Positions 8,206 through 21,808 of a stretch of DNA of 46,737 nucleotides are shown piece after piece (position 1 is the stretch's first letter; every line of letters begins with the position of its first letter). Where the stretch lies: positions 1 to 46,737 of IMG/VR virus record IMGVR_UViG_3300037873_000007; one strand, written 5' to 3'. Source of the DNA: a virus (lineage: Duplodnaviria > Caudoviricetes). A program made the translations under genes and the position numbers. A model generated the notes under the pieces. It was not told the DNA's origin. It did not search any database and worked only from the letters and a program-made list of their open reading frames with translations.

Positions 8206-10092
8206 CTATGCGCCGGCCGCACGTTGGCGAGTGCGATCAACCGTCCCACCCTGCCCGAGCTGACCCAAGAGAGCCGTGAGGTTCTGGAGAGACGGGCCCT
8301 GCTCGGGGATCGAGGTGGGCTGCTCGACGCCCTGGCCGGGGAGACTCATACCGGGCTGGGCTTGTGCCGGGGTCTGGGCCACAGTCGCCTGCTCCTCCTG
8401 CACCTGGGCCTGGAGAGCGATCATGGCCTCATACGGGTCCATACCCTTGGCCAACATCTGGTCGAACCGGGCAATGTGGACGGGCTGCCAGGGGCCTTCG
8501 GGGTTGGCTGCGAGAGCCTGGATGGACGAGAGGAAGGCCACTAAGACGGCCTCACGCACGATCTGCTGCTGCTCGGCGTCAGCATCAGGGATGAACGGGT
8601 CGATCTGCATGAACCGGTATCGGCTCATGGTGTTCATGGCAATCCGCTGCCCACCGACGACAGGGAGCTGGTCGACATCCACACCGTTGATCGGGTATTC
8701 GACCAGGTGCTTAGAGTTGTTCCAGAGAGCGGCCGGGGAGTAGCTCACCTCGCCCTGCCATGCTCGGGTCATGATGAAGATCTTCTTCGTGGTGGGCAGG
8801 CCGGTGCCGGGGTCGTAGTCCTGGAAGTAGCCCTTGTCGATGGCGATGGCCACCTCGTTCTCGTGGCGTAGAGACTTGGCGAAGATGTCCTGGGCCTGAG
8901 CGATCGTGAAGTTGATGGCGGCCCCCATCACCTGAGCGCCCCGTCGACCAGTGCGGACATTGTCTGACTGAGACATGCCTCCGAACTCGGCAGGGAGGCC
9001 GGCGTCCTGGTGGATGTGGTGCTCGATGCGGTCCTGGAGCTGCTCGGCCCGGTAAGAAGGGTCGAGATCCTGGCGCTCGATCTTGCCACCTCTGATCTGA
9101 CCAGGCGTGCCCGAGGCCGGGTCCGGGATAGTGACGACGTCGACCTGCTCGTTGGGGTTGGAGACAGCCCACTCTCGGGCCCAGATCGAGCGGCGCTGAG
9201 CGATGACGCCCATGGCCATGAAGGCAGCCTGGGCCTGGTACATGCCAATAATGCCGTCGTACTCACCGAGGGTCTTGTCGAGATTGACTGAGCCGGGCAC
9301 GACTGCCAGTGGGTGGCAAGCGAAGTTGTCGAAGCCGCCAAGCATCTCTGCATTGGTGCCATAGGCGGCCTCGCCGTAGTAGGGGTCACCGACGACATCG
9401 GGGGCGATCAAGATGAGGCAGCAGTAGTAGGCGTCGCAGTACTCCAGGACGTCGAACATCATCTCGGAGTTGTCCTGGCCCGGGTCGTAGTTGAAGGGCT
9501 TCTTGATGCGCCCGAGCTGATCTGGGAAGCGCTTCTCCAGCCAGGCATAGGAGTGGCGCTGCACGAAGATGCAGTCGGAAGGCAAGTAGTCGTTGAACTC
9601 GATCTCAGCAGGGAAGGTCTGGAGAGGATGGCGGGCGTACCACTTGGGGTACTCCTGGCCCGTACGGGGATCGTGGAAGGGCTTGAGGACGACAGGGGTG
9701 CATCCATAGGCGAGGAGTCTCATGCCCCGCTGGATGCGATGGATGCGGAGATCGTTCTCGTAGTGCCACGAAGAGGAGATGAGACGTCGGTTGCGAGTGG
9801 CCTTCTCGGAAGTTTCCACACCGGGCCGGAGAACTGGCCAGGTGCAGACAGGGTCGGTAGAGGCGATGCGGGCCCCCATCTGCTTCATGCCCCGTTGGGC
9901 GAGGTTGGCGACCATGGGCCGCTCCGACTCGGTCAGCTCGGGGAGAGGCACGACCATGTCGTTGTTCATGACGGCCTGGATCTCCCTGATGCGCTGGAGA
10001 TCTTCCCCCTGGGCGGACCGTCGGTGCTGGTAGGTGGCCCAGATCTCGTCGGCGGTCGGCCGGCGGTAGGAGTGGTACGCAGCCAGTGTCAT
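8206..10092 (-). CDS. Portal protein, 628 aa
   Basis: Immediately follows terminase with ATGA overlap (10089-10092); portal-like size with Q/P-rich C-terminal tail. Confidence 0.8.
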   Translation of the reverse strand: MTLAAYHSYRRPTADEIWATYQHRRSAQGEDLQRIREIQAVMNNDMVVPLPELTESERPMVANLAQRGMKQMGARIASTDPVCTWPVLRPGVETSEKATRNRRLISSSWHYENDLRIHRIQRGMRLLAYGCTPVVLKPFHDPRTGQEYPKWYARHPLQTFPAEIEFNDYLPSDCIFVQRHSYAWLEKRFPDQLGRIKKPFNYDPGQDNSEMMFDVLEYCDAYYCCLILIAPDVVGDPYYGEAAYGTNAEMLGGFDNFACHPLAVVPGSVNLDKTLGEYDGIIGMYQAQAAFMAMGVIAQRRSIWAREWAVSNPNEQVDVVTIPDPASGTPGQIRGGKIERQDLDPSYRAEQLQDRIEHHIHQDAGLPAEFGGMSQSDNVRTGRRGAQVMGAAINFTIAQAQDIFAKSLRHENEVAIAIDKGYFQDYDPGTGLPTTKKIFIMTRAWQGEVSYSPAALWNNSKHLVEYPINGVDVDQLPVVGGQRIAMNTMSRYRFMQIDPFIPDADAEQQQIVREAVLVAFLSSIQALAANPEGPWQPVHIARFDQMLAKGMDPYEAMIALQAQVQEEQATVAQTPAQAQPGMSLPGQGVEQPTSIPEQGPSLQNLTALLGQLGQGGTVDRTRQRAAGA

Positions 10093-12077
10093 GCGTTCGC
10101 CGTCCTCTGATTCATCCAGCTCGGGATGTCGTTGTAGAGGGAGCCTAGTGGTTCGGCGTCGACCACAAGGTGCTGGAGATTGAACTCCATGAACCAGTTG
10201 GCCATGATGCAGTCGGTCGTGGTGACATCCGGGTAGTGGGTGAGTTCCTTGACGAGAGGCTTGCACATCGAGCGGCCCGCCATCGTGCCCGGCAGAGAGA
10301 CACGGCCGAACTTGTAGTGGTTCTTGATGGTCTCCACACCGAAGTTCTCGTCGGCCTTGTTCGACTGAGTGTTATGCGGCCGGAGCTGCACTGAGTTCTG
10401 CGAGCACCACTGGCGGAACCATGAGTACTGCATGAGGAATCGCTGAGCACCGTTCTTCTCAACAATGAGATAGTTGATCGGGAAGCCGGTCTTGCGGGCC
10501 CGTTCTTGCCAGTCAGCCAAGAGGCCCGTGTGACATGCGAGCGGCACGTTCCAGTCGAGCAGGTCAGGGCCGTCCATCCTGCCCCGGTACATGTCGATGA
10601 GATACCGCTGGCCCATGAAGCGGTCGACGCTCGGGGGCTCGACGTAGATCCACCATTGCACGGACCAGAACTTGGCCGGCGCAGGGTCGACGGTGACAAT
10701 CGAGAGCTTCGTGCCGCTGAGGCCATGAGGCACCTGACCAACAGTGCGGGCGTTGTCGTAGCAGCCGGGGAATGAGTTGCCGTGCTCATCGGTGCCACCC
10801 GTGATCCAGATGGCCGGCACAAGGACGCCCTTGGGGTCGACGTCCTGCTGCTGATAGACGACTTCGTAGTTCGAGTTCGGGCGGTCCTTCTCCGCAACCT
10901 GTTCCCGCCAGCTGAGACGCACAGGATCGAGCAGGCAACCGGAGTGCTCGGGGTCCTTGGGGTCAAAGGGTGCTGCCCGGCGTGAGTGCATCCGGGGATT
11001 CTCCTTGGCCTTGCAATACTCGTTGTAGTGCGCCTTGTAGACAATCTGGTGGTACTTGGGTCGAGACTCGGGCTCGATGTCCTTGTCCTCGCCGATGAGT
11101 TCTGTGATGTTGAAGTCGTCGTCCCAATCGTCGATGTCGATGTCTGAGACCGTGAGTTCCTTGCAGTGCTTGTAGAGATCGTTGCTACCGAGACGCTGCC
11201 CCTGGAGGAGGAGAAGGCCGTAGGGTTCGAGCCGGCGTTCGGCGACATCATGCCACCATCCTTCATCCTCTTTGACCGTGTCCTCGTTGCGGAGACGATC
11301 GAGAGAGACCAGGTCGTCCCAGATCATGATGTTGACACGGTGGGAGATGACTTCTGTGTTGCGCCCGAAGGCGGTCCAGGTGGCTTCCTTCTCACCTGAG
11401 TAGGTCTCGCCGAACTGGACGACGGTGAGCTGATCGTTGGCCCACGGGATCTGGTCGGCACGGTCAGGCCGGAGAGGCCCGTAGTCGTGGGCGAGAACAG
11501 AGTCGGCATCGAGGGCCAACCCACGGGAGAGTTCCTGCTCGTCGGCCTCCATGGGAACGGTCCGGGCGAGGGTGTTGCGGAGACGTCGGGTGTAACGCTC
11601 GGCGATGTTCTGAGTGACGGCCCCGAGCAGCCCACGGATAGCCCGATTGCGGACGGTGAGCCAGGCGGGGATGTCGTGGGTGAAGAGAGTTGTCTTGCCT
11701 GAGCCCGGTGGGCAGTTGAGAACCACGAACTCCTTGAAGGAGGTTTCGAGGAGGCGGATGGTCTCTTGGGCGGCGTTCTCCTGCCATGGAGATGAGATGC
11801 GGCCGAAGAACCGGGCCCGGAACCTAGCGAAGTCGTTGAGGCAATCGAGGGCCGTGGGGCTGAGATCCTCCCGGGGTATGGGGCCAGCGGGGATCTCCAT
11901 CCTGACCCGAGGTTTGCGGCCGGGGTTCTGGGGCTGGGCGAGGAGGCGCTGGTTCAATCGGCGGCCCGTGGCGTAGGAGACTCCGGCGGCCTTGGAGGCT
12001 TCGGTGATGTTGAGCCCACTCTGCCTGCCCCTGGCGAAGAGGGCCTCTTTCTCTGAGCTGGTTCTGGGCCTGGCCAT
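10089..12077 (-). CDS. terL: Terminase large subunit with N-terminal HTH
   Basis: Walker A CPPGSGKTT, Walker B IMIWDD, YQQ motif, RNase H-like VTVDPA and C-terminal DCIMA; N-terminal LNITEASKAAGVSYATGRRL HTH. Confidence 0.92.
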   Translation of the reverse strand: MARPRTSSEKEALFARGRQSGLNITEASKAAGVSYATGRRLNQRLLAQPQNPGRKPRVRMEIPAGPIPREDLSPTALDCLNDFARFRARFFGRISSPWQENAAQETIRLLETSFKEFVVLNCPPGSGKTTLFTHDIPAWLTVRNRAIRGLLGAVTQNIAERYTRRLRNTLARTVPMEADEQELSRGLALDADSVLAHDYGPLRPDRADQIPWANDQLTVVQFGETYSGEKEATWTAFGRNTEVISHRVNIMIWDDLVSLDRLRNEDTVKEDEGWWHDVAERRLEPYGLLLLQGQRLGSNDLYKHCKELTVSDIDIDDWDDDFNITELIGEDKDIEPESRPKYHQIVYKAHYNEYCKAKENPRMHSRRAAPFDPKDPEHSGCLLDPVRLSWREQVAEKDRPNSNYEVVYQQQDVDPKGVLVPAIWITGGTDEHGNSFPGCYDNARTVGQVPHGLSGTKLSIVTVDPAPAKFWSVQWWIYVEPPSVDRFMGQRYLIDMYRGRMDGPDLLDWNVPLACHTGLLADWQERARKTGFPINYLIVEKNGAQRFLMQYSWFRQWCSQNSVQLRPHNTQSNKADENFGVETIKNHYKFGRVSLPGTMAGRSMCKPLVKELTHYPDVTTTDCIMANWFMEFNLQHLVVDAEPLGSLYNDIPSWMNQRTANA

Positions 12078-12504: not shown

Positions 12505-12629
12505 GGCGATTCTTCGCCCGCTACTTGACAACCTGGCCCGAGATCACTCCCGGGAGTGAAGCGTCCCACGGTGCGTCTACCGCACTGGGCAGCCTCCTGC
12601 GAGATCGGCCAGGCCTGCTACTTGAGAAC
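12505..12629 (+). promoter_or_regulatory. Hairpin plus two boxA-like motifs (candidate antitermination signals)
   Basis: GGCGA-TTCT-TCGCC (12505-12518), then CGCTACTTGACAAC (12519-12532) and TGCTACTTGAGAAC (12616-12629). Confidence 0.5.
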
Positions 12630-12657
12630 AGAAGAGACTTTCCATCCATCCTCCGAA

Positions 12658-12776
12658 CGAAACGGGGGTGAGATGGCTAGGCGCTACCAGGCCGCTGAGA
12701 GTCATTCCCAGCACCCTGGACGCACCTGGCCGCTCCCGTCCCGTGGCACTGGTAGCCACGGCTGAACGAGATACCG
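12658..12776 (+). ncRNA. Type II hammerhead ribozyme, variant core (HH-A)
   Basis: C-GAAA 12658-12662; stem III CGGGGGT/GCTCCCG with long extension; GUC site (C12740); stem I CCGTGGC/GCCACGG; core CTGAACGA (one extra nt); loop TGGTA pairs with 3' TACCG; stem II only about 1 bp. Confidence 0.7.
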
Positions 12777-12783
12777 AGAGAGG

Positions 12784-13134
12784 ATGGACATGGCACAAGT
12801 AGCACTGCACTTCAACGGCGCTACCACGGAGATGGTGCGAGACCTGGCATCGGTCCTGAGTCGCAACGGTCACGAGGGTGAGCTACGGCTTGGCCTGGAT
12901 GGGCCCGAGCTATGGCACGGAGAGACTCCCGAGCTGGGCACACGCCAGTTCGCCCACGTCGTGGCTGAGCTGGTGAAGATCTCCCCCTCGTTCTACGGGG
13001 GAGCCAGTACGGAAGATGGCAAGACGAGCATTGCCGATGCCCTCGATGAGTGGCGGACCATGAAACGGCAAGCGAACGAGAGGGCACTAGCGGACAAGCT
13101 GGGCCCGGGAGAGGACACGATCAGTCATGGCTAG
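12784..13134 (+). CDS. First early gene, hypothetical (start 12784 or 12790)
   Basis: GAGAGGATGG start motif; coupled to the next ORF. Confidence 0.75.
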   Translation: MDMAQVALHFNGATTEMVRDLASVLSRNGHEGELRLGLDGPELWHGETPELGTRQFAHVVAELVKISPSFYGGASTEDGKTSIADALDEWRTMKRQANERALADKLGPGEDTISHG

Positions 13135-13393
13135 TGCATTCGAGGTAGTGGGAGAACTGATCTACGACCGGGAGACAGACGAACTCCTCAAGGTCAGGGT
13201 CAGTGAGCTGCGAGAGGCATTCCAGGCAAGGCAGTACCTCATGCGAGACAGGACACTGCGTCTCCTGCGAGACACCTACCTGAACGACCAGGTGCCCAGT
13301 GATGTCAGCACGTATGCGATCTACCGCACCGTGCGCAACGCTGTGATTGACCTGGCCGAGGTGAGACTGCGTCACGAGTACGGAGGCTTCTAG
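13127..13393 (+). CDS. Hypothetical early protein, 88 aa
   Basis: Overlaps upstream ORF; its TAG abuts ribozyme HH-B. Confidence 0.75.
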   Translation: MASAFEVVGELIYDRETDELLKVRVSELREAFQARQYLMRDRTLRLLRDTYLNDQVPSDVSTYAIYRTVRNAVIDLAEVRLRHEYGGF

Positions 13394-13468
13394 TCGAAAC
13401 TCCTGGTCACTGAGAGAGTGGCCGGGAGTCTGTAGGGATTGACCACCCTGCACTGATGAGACAGGTCA
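13393..13468 (+). ncRNA. Type II hammerhead ribozyme (HH-B)
   Basis: GTC-GAAA; 12-bp stem III 13400-13411/13417-13428; GUC site (C13430); stem I TGTAGGG/CCCTGCA; CTGATGA 13453-13459; GAC; pseudoknot TGACC/GGTCA. Confidence 0.95.
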
Positions 13469-13486
13469 CAGAGAGGATGGGAAGAC

Positions 13487-13903
13487 ATGTTGACATCAAC
13501 GGCTGTCACGCTGGTGAACGAGAGCCTGGTGTTCCCGGTCGGGTGGAAGGTGACCGCCACGGATCACACGGACCGTTTCGAGGGTTCGATCCTGGTGCAC
13601 ATCGTGCTGACCGATGCCCGGAAGAGTGAACGGGAAGAGGCTCCCGAGTACAAGGTGCCGATCCCCAACGGTGCGAGGAGTGCGTTCCCGGTCTACGTGG
13701 CCGACGTGAGTGGGATTGAGGATCTGACATTCGAGATCATCCAAGCCATGAGCGAGGCTTACGTGCATGAGCTGCGAGAGTTCGTGCGAGTCGCCCCGAC
13801 GTTCTGGGCCCCGTTCCATCCCCACAAGGGAGACGGCATTCGGCGCTGGGCTGAGAAGACTGGTGGAGATCCGAAGCGTGACTACCTGTTCGGGTTGGGC
13901 TGA
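13487..13903 (+). CDS. Hypothetical early protein, 138 aa
   Basis: GAGAGGATGG motif upstream; protein-like composition. Confidence 0.8.
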   Translation: MLTSTAVTLVNESLVFPVGWKVTATDHTDRFEGSILVHIVLTDARKSEREEAPEYKVPIPNGARSAFPVYVADVSGIEDLTFEIIQAMSEAYVHELREFVRVAPTFWAPFHPHKGDGIRRWAEKTGGDPKRDYLFGLG

Positions 13904-13906
13904 GAC

Positions 13907-14101
13907 ATGCTCACAACCAAGTCAGGGCACGTCATCGACTGGAGATGGTCAGACTTCACAGGCCGGCGAGAGATCGTTGGGAGAGCGGCCGGGTATTCCA
14001 TCTATGCGAGTGAGCACGAAGATGGCACCTGGTCATGGAACGGGTTCTGTTACGACACCCTCGAGCATGCGAGAGAGTCAGCTCGTAAGGCTGGCTACTA
14101 G
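13907..14101 (+). CDS. Hypothetical early protein, 64 aa
   Basis: Closely spaced ORF; its TAG abuts ribozyme HH-C. Confidence 0.7.
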   Translation: MLTTKSGHVIDWRWSDFTGRREIVGRAAGYSIYASEHEDGTWSWNGFCYDTLEHARESARKAGY

Positions 14102-14178
14102 TCGAAAGTCATCCCCTGGTGTTGGGCTAGGGGGTGACTCTACGGGAGATGGCTTACCCGTACTGATGAGACAGGCCA
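14101..14178 (+). ncRNA. Type II hammerhead ribozyme (HH-C)
   Basis: GTC-GAAA; 13-bp stem III 14108-14120/14126-14138; CUC site (C14140); stem I TACGGG/CCCGTA; CTGATGA 14163-14169; GAC; pseudoknot TGGCTT/AGGCCA. Confidence 0.95.
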
Positions 14179-14199
14179 ACATCGAGAGGATGGGAAGAG

Positions 14200-14397
14200 A
14201 TGCTGAACGCCTTTATCAAGGTGATTGAGATGCTGCTCGTGTCGGCTGTGTGGGTGTTCTCCTACGCAGAAGAGGCCGCCTACCGCATCAAGCGACACAA
14301 CCGGCTGACGCCCACGTTGGGCACGGTGCTGGTCACGTGGCTTGGCCTGGTCGCAGTCGTGCTCTACATCGGCGAGCAGATCGGGGTCGTGTCATGA
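14200..14397 (+). CDS. Small membrane protein, 65 aa
   Basis: Two hydrophobic segments; GAGAGGATGG upstream. Confidence 0.7.
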   Translation: MLNAFIKVIEMLLVSAVWVFSYAEEAAYRIKRHNRLTPTLGTVLVTWLGLVAVVLYIGEQIGVVS

Positions 14398-14759
14398 GAG
14401 CGGTCACAGTCACGATCGGCCGCAACCTGGCTGATGGTCAGCTGAGCCCTGAGAGCTGGTCTGAGTACATCGGCCGAACCCGAGCGGTGGTAGCGGCTGT
14501 GTCCGATGAGATCTGGGTTGCCTCCCGGTATAAGGGACGGTGGGCCGGAGAGACTGAGGATGCGTTCGTGGTCTACGCAGGGCTGCCAGAGAACAAGGAT
14601 GAGCCCAGCTGGCAGATGTACGGTCGGGAGAACATGCTACGAGAGCGACTGCGCAACCTGGCCAGTGAGTACGGACAAGAGAGCGTCGGGGTCACGTTCG
14701 GCGAGAACGAGCTAGTGCAGGCGTTCCCGAGCTACCAGGAACAGGAGACGGTGGCGTGA
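14394..14759 (+). CDS. Putative SAM lyase / DUF3574-like protein, 121 aa
   Basis: ATGA overlap start; GRWAGETEDAFVV and LASEYGQESV resemble the G-(W/Y)-G..E and LA..(Y/F).QESV pattern of phage SAM lyases. Confidence 0.55.
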   Translation: MRAVTVTIGRNLADGQLSPESWSEYIGRTRAVVAAVSDEIWVASRYKGRWAGETEDAFVVYAGLPENKDEPSWQMYGRENMLRERLRNLASEYGQESVGVTFGENELVQAFPSYQEQETVA

Positions 14760-14941
14760 ACATGACTGAGTGGCACGAAGGCTACCTGGAGGGGCTGATG
14801 GGGTACCGGTGGAGATGGTCACTGCTCACCGAACATCCCAAGTGGACGTCCCTGGCCCATAAGGGTCATATCGAGGGATGGGCCGATCGCAAAGCAGCTC
14901 ACAGAGATCTCGGACTGGAGATCACAGGTACTACGAAGTGA
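14756..14941 (+). CDS. Hypothetical protein, 61 aa
   Basis: GTGA overlap start. Confidence 0.6.
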   Translation: MNMTEWHEGYLEGLMGYRWRWSLLTEHPKWTSLAHKGHIEGWADRKAAHRDLGLEITGTTK

Positions 14942-15024
14942 GATCACCCCTACACGAGCGAGCAAGGGTTCGTGTAGGGCAATGTCACATCGTGTGGCAG
15001 ATAGAGACATAGGAGGATGGAAAG

Positions 15025-15592: not shown

Positions 15593-15740
15593 GGTGAGCG
15601 AGGATGGGTGGGAGTCTCTTCTGGATCTCAGCAGGATCGGGGCAAACGGCCTCTCAGGGCCCCGTAGCCGTTCTGGGCGCTCCTACCCCCCACCCGAGGG
15701 CTCTGGAGCGCAGCACGACGCATCCTGGCCGGCGTCCTGA

Positions 15741-16114
15741 GCCCGTCCGTCCTGGTGTGCGGCCCCCATTTCGGCCCGTCCGTCCTGGAACTCACGCATC
15801 GTAGCGAGGTGGGTGGGTAGGGTGGCGCTTGGCAACGGAGCCCTTCCGTCCTGGTAAACGGAGACGTAAGGAGAAGGTTTAATGCCAGCTGAGTATTTAG
15901 TAGAGAGCGTGGGGCTGGATCGTGCCAACGATGCGATCCGAGTCGAGCAGCGAAAGGTGGAAGCGCTGGCGACTGTCCTCATCCAGAACGCTCGGGTGCT
16001 GCACAAGCAGATGCACCCCATTCTGGAGGGGGGTATGAGAACGTGCAAGCAAGTCACGTGCCGACGGGTGAGAGAGGTGTTGGGTCAGAGCTAGCCCGTC
16101 CGTCCTGGTAAACG
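15741..16114 (+). repeat. Iteron/operator-like direct repeats GCCC(G/T)TCCGTCCTGG x4
   Basis: Copies at 15741, 15774, 15840 and 16094; the last two extend with TAAACG. Confidence 0.85.
15882..16094 (+). CDS. Hypothetical protein, 70 aa
   Basis: AAGGAG upstream; C-terminal H..C....C residues; sits between repeats 3 and 4. Confidence 0.55.
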   Translation: MPAEYLVESVGLDRANDAIRVEQRKVEALATVLIQNARVLHKQMHPILEGGMRTCKQVTCRRVREVLGQS

Positions 16115-16135
16115 AGAAGCTAGTCGGGTAAATGA

Positions 16136-16173
16136 GAAGGCCCCGTCAGGTGCGAGATCCTGGCGGGGCCTTC
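16136..16173. terminator. GC-rich hairpin, probable terminator of first early block
   Basis: GAAGGCCCCGTCAGG / CCTGGCGGGGCCTTC; weak U tract. Confidence 0.6.
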
Positions 16174-16445
16174 GTCGTGGTGCGGCAACTCGTTCGAGCC
16201 CCAGCAAGTCTTCGCTGAGGTGCGCCGTACTCAGGGAGAGGATGGGGGCCTGACCCGAGCCGGCGCACACCCAGCTGGTGTCGGGCGCTGGGAACCCGAC
16301 GCAGGCCAGTGTACCGGGCGGGCCCGACGTCGACGAATTTCAGCATGTCGAATTGTCGGTTTCCTCCCGTTAGGGGTGTAGTCCCTCCTATAACAGCAAC
16401 AAACCGACATTTCCACACGTCGAAATTGTAGAGGCTTCGACCTGC

Positions 16446-16458: not shown

Positions 16459-16737
16459 ATGCCCTCCCCCCCGAGCGCACCAGCTGGGCTTACGCTCCAA
16501 GACGTCTTGGAGATGTACAAGGCGGCAGAGCCCGGCCAGACCATTGTCCTCCCCGAGATCGTCAAGCGTGACAGGGGACGGCCACGGGTTATCCAGAACC
16601 CAAGGAAGATAGAGGCCAAGGTGGAGCAAGAGGTCCACGAGGCTCTGTCTGAGATCGCTAAGGAGAACGGCACGACCGTAGCAGATATCCTCAGAGATCT
16701 TGCACAGGGTTATGTCGAGGCCCACCGAGCGGCCTGA
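16459..16737 (+). CDS. Ribbon-helix-helix (CopG/Arc-like) DNA-binding protein with AT-hook-like RGRPR
   Basis: RDRGRPR followed by KIEAKVEQEVHEALSEIAKENGTTVADILRDLA. Confidence 0.75.
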   Translation: MPSPPSAPAGLTLQDVLEMYKAAEPGQTIVLPEIVKRDRGRPRVIQNPRKIEAKVEQEVHEALSEIAKENGTTVADILRDLAQGYVEAHRAA

Positions 16738-21718: not shown

Positions 21719-21791
21719 GGGCCGGTAGTCCAGGTGGCTGGGCACTCCTTTATAGAGGGGATGGGTGCGGGTTCGACTCCCGTCCGGTCCA
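21719..21791 (+). tRNA. tRNA or tRNA-like gene with atypical anticodon arm (nominal anticodon ATA)
   Basis: Acceptor GGGCCGG/CCGGTCC; D arm GTCC/GGGC; T arm GCGGG-TTCGACT-CCCGT; 73 nt; anticodon arm ambiguous. Confidence 0.75.
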
Positions 21792-21808
21792 CAGAGAGAT
21801 GAGAGAGG

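What the first reader, a model, noticed from the sequence alone, without database searches (positions are those of the whole stretch)
12658..14178. Three type II hammerhead ribozymes punctuate the start of the early operon
Seen: three elements in successive + strand intergenic positions share the order stem II-GAAA-stem III-NUC-stem I-CUGA(N)GA-stem II. Predicted cuts are after 12740 (GUC), 13430 (GUC) and 14140 (CUC). Stem sequences differ between copies yet all pair. The loop-I/3'-tail pseudoknot covaries: TGGTA/TACCG, TGACC/GGTCA, TGGCTT/AGGCCA. HH-B and HH-C start in the TAG of the upstream gene, and all three end a few nt before a GAGAGGATGG ribosome-binding motif. Established: pseudoknotted type II hammerheads occur in bacteria and phages and leave 5'-OH and 2',3'-cyclic phosphate ends. 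Inference: the phage cuts its earliest polycistron, independently of host nucleases, into two-gene units of about 690 and 710 nt, analogous to RNase III processing of the T7 early mRNA.
Basis: partly seen in the sequence, partly recalled or inferred. Interest (0 to 1): 0.92.

Follow-up and report, generated by a model that had tools for sequence, protein, structure and literature searches.

The report
Phage hammerheads, first masks ribosome site
Three self-cutting hammerhead RNA motifs really do sit between the first small genes of this uncultured phage, a layout known since 2011, but the first one is an odd variant predicted to hide the first gene's ribosome-binding site until it cuts itself, which would be a natural version of an engineered gene switch.

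Summary
Observation confirmed. A descriptor scan finds exactly three type II hammerheads in the complete 46.7-kb phage genome, with cuts after 12740, 13430 and 14140; 0 of 100 shuffles give one of equal stem quality. Copies B and C match Rfam Hammerhead_II just under the cut-off; A is missed. The layout and the mRNA-processing idea were published and tested by Perreault 2011. Such arrays are common (28 lineages here, up to 15 copies), and this scan has reported them on other DNA. In folding models, cutting lowers the cost of opening that site from 8-11 to 3 kcal/mol. Matched masks recur on leader hammerheads of a few unrelated phages (8 of 78 against 7 of 274, p=0.007), but a partial hold-out was not significant, and most leader hammerheads lack one. 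An earlier scan note describes a similar mask on a type III hammerhead. Two syntenic relatives have long hairpins, not hammerheads, in these gaps. Nothing was tested by experiment. Verdict: known array, with a plausible cleavage-gated translation variant (about 40%).

The parts
10089..12077 (-). Terminase large subunit, divergent from the hammerhead operon (context)
   Evidence: PHROG 38, E 1.8e-25
12525..12530 (+). TTGACA, a possible -35 element or part of a boxA-like motif; no matching -10 found
   Evidence: Sequence; promoter scan negative; the role is inference
12621..12629 (+). boxA-like motif in the leader (resemblance recalled, not tested functionally)
   Evidence: Sequence; regex
12642..12653 (+). 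Anti-RBS stretch: 12645-12653 pairs 9 Watson-Crick bp with 12780-12788, and 12642-12644 pairs with 12791-12793 (UG of the AUG plus the next base); forms a distal extension of stem II
   Evidence: MFE; pair probability 1.0; second strongest such duplex among 168 hammerheads
12658..12776 (+). Hammerhead A (type II variant): cut after 12740, core CUGAACGA with one inserted base, 1-bp stem II, long stem III, pseudoknot 12750-12754 with 12772-12776
   Evidence: Descriptor scan; no Rfam hit; the only CUGAACGA core among 469
12778..12793 (+). RBS and start codon of gene 1, masked in the uncut RNA
   Evidence: Opening energy 8.1-11.5 kcal/mol uncut against 2.8 in the 3' product
12790..13393 (+). Genes 1 and 2 (114 and 88 aa, no family match), inside the 690-nt fragment 12741-13430
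   Evidence: ORFs; no PHROG or Pfam hit
13393..13468 (+). Hammerhead B (canonical type II): cut after 13430, pseudoknot 13440-13444 with 13464-13468
13487..14101 (+). Genes 3 and 4 (138 and 64 aa, no family match), inside the 710-nt fragment 13431-14140; RBS at 13471
14101..14178 (+). Hammerhead C (canonical type II, CUC cut triplet): cut after 14140, pseudoknot 14150-14155 with 14173-14178
14200..14941 (+). Genes 5-7 (no significant family match; start of gene 6 at 14394 is inferred), downstream block; RBS at 14184
14932..14994 (+). Long interrupted hairpin (12-bp upper stem) before the next RBS; not a hammerhead; possible RNase III-type site (inference)
   Evidence: z -6.9, 0 of 200 shuffles; no Rfam hit

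Best explanation
The three motifs are self-cleaving type II hammerhead ribozymes that cut the phage's first rightward polycistron during or soon after transcription. Shown here: the sequence, the folds and their positions. Inferred from the family: B and C cut fast. Each cut leaves an upstream RNA that ends just after a stop codon in the stem III hairpin with a 2',3'-cyclic phosphate. It also leaves a downstream RNA that starts with a 5'-OH and the pseudoknotted stem I, 38-44 nt before an RBS. The result is separate two-gene mRNAs, each with its own structured leader, whose stability and translation are insulated from upstream context. Copy A is probably slower (core insertion, 1-bp stem II) and is held together by a distal helix that covers gene 1's RBS and AUG, so its cut is also the step most likely to release gene 1 for translation. 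That last step is the least certain part (about 0.4).
For: Complete cores and stems in all three, 0 of 100 shuffles. Rfam RF02276 hits for B and C. In relatives, the pseudoknot holds without being filtered for: 325 of 370 own loop/tail pairs give >=4 WC bp against 24% with swapped tails. An SD-like motif follows the core in 384 of 469 hammerheads. Perreault 2011 showed that all ribozymes of three tandem arrays cleave in ~2-kb transcripts, that one array cleaves in E. coli, and that a 1-bp stem II ribozyme with a pseudoknot exceeds 1.2 per min. Syntenic relatives L003 and L407 carry other folded elements in these gaps (z -2.7 to -6.8 for 8 of 9 folded), which fits processing as the conserved job. 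Masking of gene 1's RBS.
Against: No cleavage or expression data for this phage. No close relative keeps the same hammerheads, so there is no within-family covariation: genes 1 and 3 had no relatives, and G001 and G002 have no RF02276 match. B and C fall just below Rfam gathering, and A is not hit. Copy A's insertion resembles A6a, reported as low-activity. A 2019 review says the purpose of such ribozymes is still undefined (PMC6765202, passage). No promoter was found.
Confidence: 0.72

Rival explanations
1. Copy A is a cleavage-gated translation switch. In the uncut leader the anti-RBS masks gene 1's RBS and AUG, and the same pairing is needed for the ribozyme to fold. Slow cleavage separates the strands and switches gene 1 on, as a delay or a proof of processing. 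A ribosome that reaches the RBS first would hold the ribozyme in an inactive fold.
For: 9+3 bp helix at P 1.0. Opening cost falls from 8.1-11.5 to 2.8 kcal/mol on cutting, with no such fall at B or C. With the RBS held open, the anti-RBS pairs with the 5' arm of stem III and core-proximal stem III drops from P 0.93 to 0.01. Only 2 of 60 leader shuffles mask as well. Masks matched to their own different RBS motifs occur on first hammerheads of L160, the L180 family, L290, L292 and L355. With the window and the anti-SD-selected loci left out, leader-type against intercistronic is 9 of 78 against 6 of 271 (p=0.0014) and, with more loci, 8 of 78 against 7 of 274 (p=0.007).
Against: Thresholds were chosen after seeing data. 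The partial hold-out gave 2 of 16 against 2 of 97 (p=0.096), and 0 of 16 against 1 of 97 by the helix rule. 'First in array' alone is not enriched per lineage (2 of 27 against 3 of 116, p=0.24). Specificity controls are modest: 5 of 78 (p=0.046), 7 of 78 (p=0.003), 4 of 78 (p=0.13), and the window's own composition shuffle gives p=0.06. 1.5% of random 25-mers from the window pair as well. Relative L003 shows no mask (45 of 60 shuffles reach it) and L407 a weak one (9 of 60). The two-state fold was not seen in the 6 other masked cases that fold as hammerheads; the seventh, L190, is a doubtful call. A 12-bp duplex could persist after the cut.
Confidence: 0.4
2. The distal helix is only a folding brace that makes up for the 1-bp stem II and the long stem III of copy A, or copy A is decaying and barely cuts. 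Gene 1 is then simply translated at a low, fixed level.
For: 1-bp stem II, inserted core base and 81-nt stem III span. A6a-type insertions have low activity, and some disruptive variants were inactive. Other genes of the window without any ribozyme also have high opening energies (13127: 15.7; 13907: 13.5).
Against: All other core positions, a perfect 7-bp stem I and a 5-bp pseudoknot are intact. Masks in other phages sit on hammerheads with normal 3-bp stems II, which need no brace.
Confidence: 0.35
3. The cuts serve to make circular or re-ligated RNAs. Each fragment has half a hammerhead at each end, the B and C halves share the same GUC/GAC stem II, and A's 3' half (GAU) would pair with B's GUC.
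For: Sequence and the modelled junctions. The 690-nt fragment is a multiple of three.
Against: Perreault 2011 looked for spliced or circular products and found none. GUC/GAC is simply the commonest stem II in this seed-biased set (150 of 168). Cut-to-cut spacings show no frame bias (34/44/40 of 118), and the 710-nt fragment is not a multiple of three.
Confidence: 0.08
4. The released 5' leader fragment acts in trans as a small anti-RBS RNA that damps the phage's own later early genes, which share the RBS, or host mRNAs.
For: The leader stretch pairs at -14.5 to -25.7 kcal/mol with all 21 GAGGAUGG sites on the + strand, some better than with gene 1.
Against: This follows directly from the shared RBS. 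There is no expression data and no sign that the fragment is stable. The cis pairing is far more favourable by proximity.
Confidence: 0.12

Closest known systems
Clustered type II hammerhead ribozymes flanking genes in prophages and phages (Perreault et al. 2011, PMC3088659; Rfam RF02276 Hammerhead_II)
   Same: Type II topology, loop I/3'-tail pseudoknot, short stem II, triple arrangement around short gene blocks, proposed processing into operon- or gene-length mRNAs.
   Different: Blocks of two genes. Copy A combines a core insertion, a 1-bp stem II and a distal helix over the RBS and AUG. No such mask appeared in the passages and section 8 that I read, and 'Shine' was not found in the 11 supplement files held as text (figures that are pictures were not searchable).
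Engineered SD-sequestering hammerhead and twister switches (Wieland and Hartig 2008, as described in PMC5052635)
   Same: A ribozyme stem hides the SD and self-cleavage frees it; active against inactive constructs differed 5- to 100-fold for twister (passages).
   Different: Here it would be natural, on an extension of the open stem II of a type II hammerhead, with no aptamer identified; function untested.
RNase III processing of phage early transcripts (T7 early RNA, Dunn and Studier 1973; lambda cIII translation stimulated by RNase III, Altuvia 1987)
   Same: An early polycistron is cut between genes, and cutting can raise translation. Relatives of this phage have long hairpins at the same gaps.
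   Different: Cutting is by the RNA itself and leaves 5'-OH and cyclic phosphate, not 5'-phosphate. I saw these two papers only as titles in a reference list; mechanistic details, and the similar lambda N leader, are recalled.
glmS ribozyme (recalled; named in PMC6765202 and PMC5052635 passages)
   Same: A natural self-cleaving RNA in a 5' leader that controls the downstream gene.
   Different: glmS needs a metabolite, and cleavage lowers expression through decay (recalled); here no ligand is known and cleavage is predicted to raise translation.

Membership tests
Type II hammerhead ribozyme (RF02276) | Conserved core C3 U4 G5 A6 N7 G8 A9, G12 A13 A14, A15.1-U16.1, H17 | tested here: met
   Met in B and C; A has all conserved bases plus one inserted base between A6 and G8
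Type II hammerhead ribozyme (RF02276) | Stems I and III closed by loops, stem II open | tested here: met
   Stems I/II/III of 7/1/9, 7/3/13 and 6/3/14 bp; stems I and III of A at P 0.96 and 0.92
Type II hammerhead ribozyme (RF02276) | Loop I / 3'-tail pseudoknot of 4 or more bp | tested here: met
   5, 5 and 6 bp; 325 of 370 in relatives against 24% with swapped tails
Type II hammerhead ribozyme (RF02276) | Score at or above the Rfam gathering threshold (37 bits) | tested here: inconclusive
   B 35.8 and C 33.6 bits over the full model, E<4e-4; A not hit, probably because of its long stem III and insertion
Type II hammerhead ribozyme (RF02276) | Mg2+-dependent self-cleavage after H17 | not testable with these tools
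   Needs a cleavage assay
Clustered phage/prophage hammerhead arrays | Several same-strand hammerheads between co-oriented phage genes, each before an RBS | tested here: met
   complete virus record
Clustered phage/prophage hammerhead arrays | Co-transcription and processed ends in vivo | not testable with these tools
   No raw RNA reads were available
SD-sequestering ribozyme switch | SD paired in the uncut RNA and free in the 3' product | tested here: met
   In folding models only: 8.1-11.5 against 2.8 kcal/mol; P 1.0
SD-sequestering ribozyme switch | Mask conserved or covarying in homologues | tested here: inconclusive
   No homologous hammerhead found; recurs in unrelated phages with modest enrichment; hold-out not significant; L003 negative
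SD-sequestering ribozyme switch | Cleavage raises translation | not testable with these tools
   Needs a reporter assay
RNase III sites of T7-type early RNA (for 14932-14994 and the relatives' hairpins) | Long interrupted stem between genes, cut by host RNase III | tested here: inconclusive
   Long stems are present; sequence determinants and cutting were not tested

The most novel reading that the evidence does not exclude
A minority class of phage leader hammerheads are natural, ligand-free translation switches. An anti-RBS just 5' of stem II masks the first early gene until the ribozyme cuts. In this phage the same stretch also toggles the ribozyme between an inactive fold (RBS free) and an active fold (RBS hidden), and a slowed core sets the timing. 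That would give bacterial and phage hammerheads a defined regulatory job, and show that ribozymes and RNase III-type stems are interchangeable processing devices in one phage family.
Probability: 0.4. Interest if true: 0.8.

Novelty: new variant of a known kind. Interest (0 to 1): 0.5.

Why it matters
What self-cleaving ribozymes do in bacteria and phages is still open: a 2019 review says more work is needed to define their purpose. The array itself adds only another example. The masked first copy gives a concrete, cheap test: active against inactive ribozyme, with and without the mask, in a reporter. Several independent phage leaders (window, L160, L180, L290, L355) can be tested side by side. 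If it holds, it is a natural counterpart of the engineered ribozyme-RBS switch.

Tried and rejected
Close relatives: gene 3 in viral contigs and gene 1 in metagenomes found none. The terminase found 2 viral loci and 11 metagenome loci at 32-52%; of these, L003, L004, L405, L407, L409, L410 and L414 were scanned and none has a credible hammerhead. Among annotated phages there are only distant Streptomyces phage terminases (about 25% identity over 38-40% of the query), so the host is not established. Sequencing runs: no RNA holder listed; the one DNA run may be the source of the window and showed the same sequence in one contig with no variants, which is not independent support. A general rule that the first hammerhead of an array masks its RBS was rejected. 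L190's first hammerhead counted as a hit but is a doubtful call (stem III P 0). The inverted repeat 12570-12589 / 12707-12726 as a competing fold was rejected (P 0.0). Two numbers were not used: the anti-RBS pair probabilities (wrong coordinates, redone) and the cofold binding energy (mis-indexed). A fourth, decayed hammerhead at 14942-15010 is not supported: no GAAA or descriptor hit and no Rfam hit. Frame-keeping spacing for circular mRNAs was rejected. A minus-strand RBS reading of the anti-RBS stretch leads only to ORFs of 42 aa or less and was not pursued. No paper describing a natural RBS-masking phage hammerhead turned up in the listings of searches; the library lacks most subscription papers, bioRxiv supplements are closed, and Perreault's supplementary figures that are pictures could not be searched. 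A source for the lambda N leader analogy was sought and not found.

Full report
Setting. The window is a complete virus record with direct terminal repeats, 61% G+C. The terminase gene lies on the - strand at 10089-12077. A run of small + strand genes starts at 12790. Genes 1-7 have no significant PHROG or Pfam match; further on come a ribbon-helix-helix-like protein and DUF932. 'Early operon' is an inference from this order; the promoter scan found 1 site against 2.0 expected. The host is unknown; the terminase is only distantly like those of Streptomyces phages.

Observation. A type II descriptor finds exactly three hits on both strands of the genome, with cuts after 12740, 13430 and 14140. 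Of 100 dinucleotide shuffles, 8 gave one loose hit and 0 a hit of equal stem quality. B and C start in the upstream TAG. The RBS motif is the phage's general one (14 + strand sites, 0 - strand).

What is known. Perreault et al. 2011 (PMC3088659; I saw the abstract, passages and section 8, and searched the supplements for four terms with no hit) reported type II hammerheads with this pseudoknot and clusters flanking single genes or short gene blocks in prophages. They proposed processing into shorter mRNAs, showed cleavage of three tandem arrays in vitro and one in E. coli, and found no circles. A 2019 review (PMC6765202, two passages) says the purpose remains undefined. Earlier notes of this scan report the same kind of array on other DNA; they are leads, not evidence.

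How common. Over 393 loci I found 508 distinct type II hammerheads and 39 arrays of three or more with at least 2.5 kb free upstream, in 28 lineages, up to 15 per array (the ten loci chosen by anti-SD patterns and the window's own two loci were left out). Without filtering for it, the pseudoknot has 4 or more WC pairs in 325 of 370 own loop/tail pairs against 24% with swapped tails. An SD-like motif follows in 384 of 469, and 187 of 469 start TAGTC, which the seeds partly force. So the stop-codon start and the downstream RBS are generic features.

Copy A is different. Its core is CUGAACGA, the only such core among 469 (the seeds favour canonical cores). Perreault describe an insertion after A6 as low-activity. 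Stem II is one pair; a 1-bp stem II with a pseudoknot can still be fast. The leader at 12645-12653 pairs 9 WC bp with 12780-12788, and 12642-12644 with 12791-12793, covering the RBS and AUG of gene 1 (P 1.0). Opening RBS-to-AUG costs 8.1-11.5 kcal/mol in uncut RNA starting between 12500 and 12641 and 2.8 in the 3' product; B and C show no such drop. When the RBS is held open or not yet made, the same stretch pairs with the 5' arm of stem III and the catalytic fold is lost (P 0.93 to 0.01). These models ignore the pseudoknot. Chance levels: 1.5% of random window 25-mers, 2 of 60 leader shuffles, p=0.06 on a composition shuffle.

Does the mask recur? Masks matched to their own RBS occur on the first hammerhead of L160 (9 bp), of the L180 family (6 bp, five distinct sequences in one cluster), and of L290, L292 and L355. 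None of the loci tested shares tblastx hits with the window (L292 and L355 were not in that test). Between the L180 family and L290, which fall in one lineage by blastn, mask and RBS differ in a matching way. With the window left out and one count per sequence cluster, hammerheads without an upstream ORF reach -11 kcal/mol in 9 of 78 against 6 of 271 (p=0.0014), and the helix rule gives 4 of 78 against 2 of 271 (p=0.024). Against this: the thresholds were set after seeing data; 'first in array' alone is not enriched per lineage (2 of 27 against 3 of 116); specificity controls gave 5, 7 and 4 of 78 against 2.0 expected (p=0.046, 0.003, 0.13). A hold-out with rules fixed in a note gave 2 of 16 against 2 of 97 (p=0.096), only one of the two being a real RBS mask, and 0 of 16 against 1 of 97 by the helix rule; pooled 8 of 78 against 7 of 274 (p=0.007). 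Most of that hold-out had already entered, so it is only partial. The mask is a minority feature. An earlier scan note (e1-6081351) describes a similar mask on a type III hammerhead in another genome; I met it after forming the idea and did not check it.

Relatives. L003 (terminase 52%; shares two early genes in order) and L407 (50%; shares one) have no hammerheads. Their early intergenic gaps hold long interrupted hairpins: z -3.9 to -6.8 for 4 of 4 folded in L003 and -2.7 to -5.9 for 4 of 5 in L407. The window has a similar hairpin at 14932-14994 (z -6.9). They look like RNase III substrates; this is inference, and the T7 and lambda cIII precedents I saw only as reference titles. The MFE of the first element reaches over the RBS in both relatives, but opening energies do not support a mask in L003 (45 of 60 shuffles) and only weakly in L407 (9 of 60). 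L410 is not syntenic.

Mechanism. Most likely (0.72) the ribozymes cut the polycistron into a leader, two two-gene mRNAs of 690 and 710 nt, and a downstream block, each new mRNA starting with a 5'-OH and a pseudoknotted hairpin 38-44 nt before its RBS. The folds and positions are shown; cleavage, end chemistry and the effect on stability are inferred from the family. For copy A the readings are a cleavage-gated translation switch (0.4), which would work like the engineered SD-masking ribozymes (PMC5052635, passages), or a mere folding brace or decaying copy (0.35). Circles (0.08) and a trans-acting leader RNA (0.12) are weak: spacings show no frame bias (34/44/40 of 118).

Verdict. B and C are ordinary members of a known arrangement. 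A is a variant with a testable regulatory design that I did not find described in the listings of five literature searches, within a library that lacks most subscription papers. Interest 0.5; 0.8 if the switch is real.

Noticed in passing
window 21719-21792 (+): A tRNA called Tyr with the unusual anticodon ATA (Rfam 42.7 bits) ends about 11 nt before a GAGAGGATGG RBS at 21803. It could be another processing element rather than a working tRNA.
   Followed up: no
window 15740-16114 (+): Four copies of a 22-nt direct repeat in and around a short ORF, upstream of a ribbon-helix-helix-like gene at 16459; possible operator or origin sites.
   Followed up: no
window 16124-16189 and 16336-16427: Two more long hairpins in the intergenic stretch before the RHH-like gene (z -3.8 and -3.1).
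   Followed up: partly
window 12621-12629; L017, L166, L333 leaders: A boxA-like motif (consensus recalled) lies within 120 nt upstream of 5 of 22 leader-first hammerheads against 12 of 196 others (p=0.018). The count includes the window and one doubtful call (L025).
   Followed up: partly
L407:661-705: A tRNA T-arm-like element in the fifth intergenic gap of a syntenic relative (weak Rfam hit; fold not better than shuffles, z -0.5).
   Followed up: partly
L003:1366-1601 (-); L004:5795-5877 (+): Sub-threshold Rfam hits to manA RNA (38.6 bits) and to tmRNA ends (41 bits) in terminase relatives.
   Followed up: no
L066, L073, L081, L084 (last hammerhead of each array): The last copy in several arrays has a distinct short-loop form with its own stem II. 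In L066 and L073 it sits directly before a homologue of the window's DUF932 gene.
   Followed up: no
L140/L141: An AT-rich phage with two hammerheads, each preceded by a stretch complementary to its own RBS. It was found by an anti-SD-like pattern, so it was left out of the counts.
   Followed up: partly
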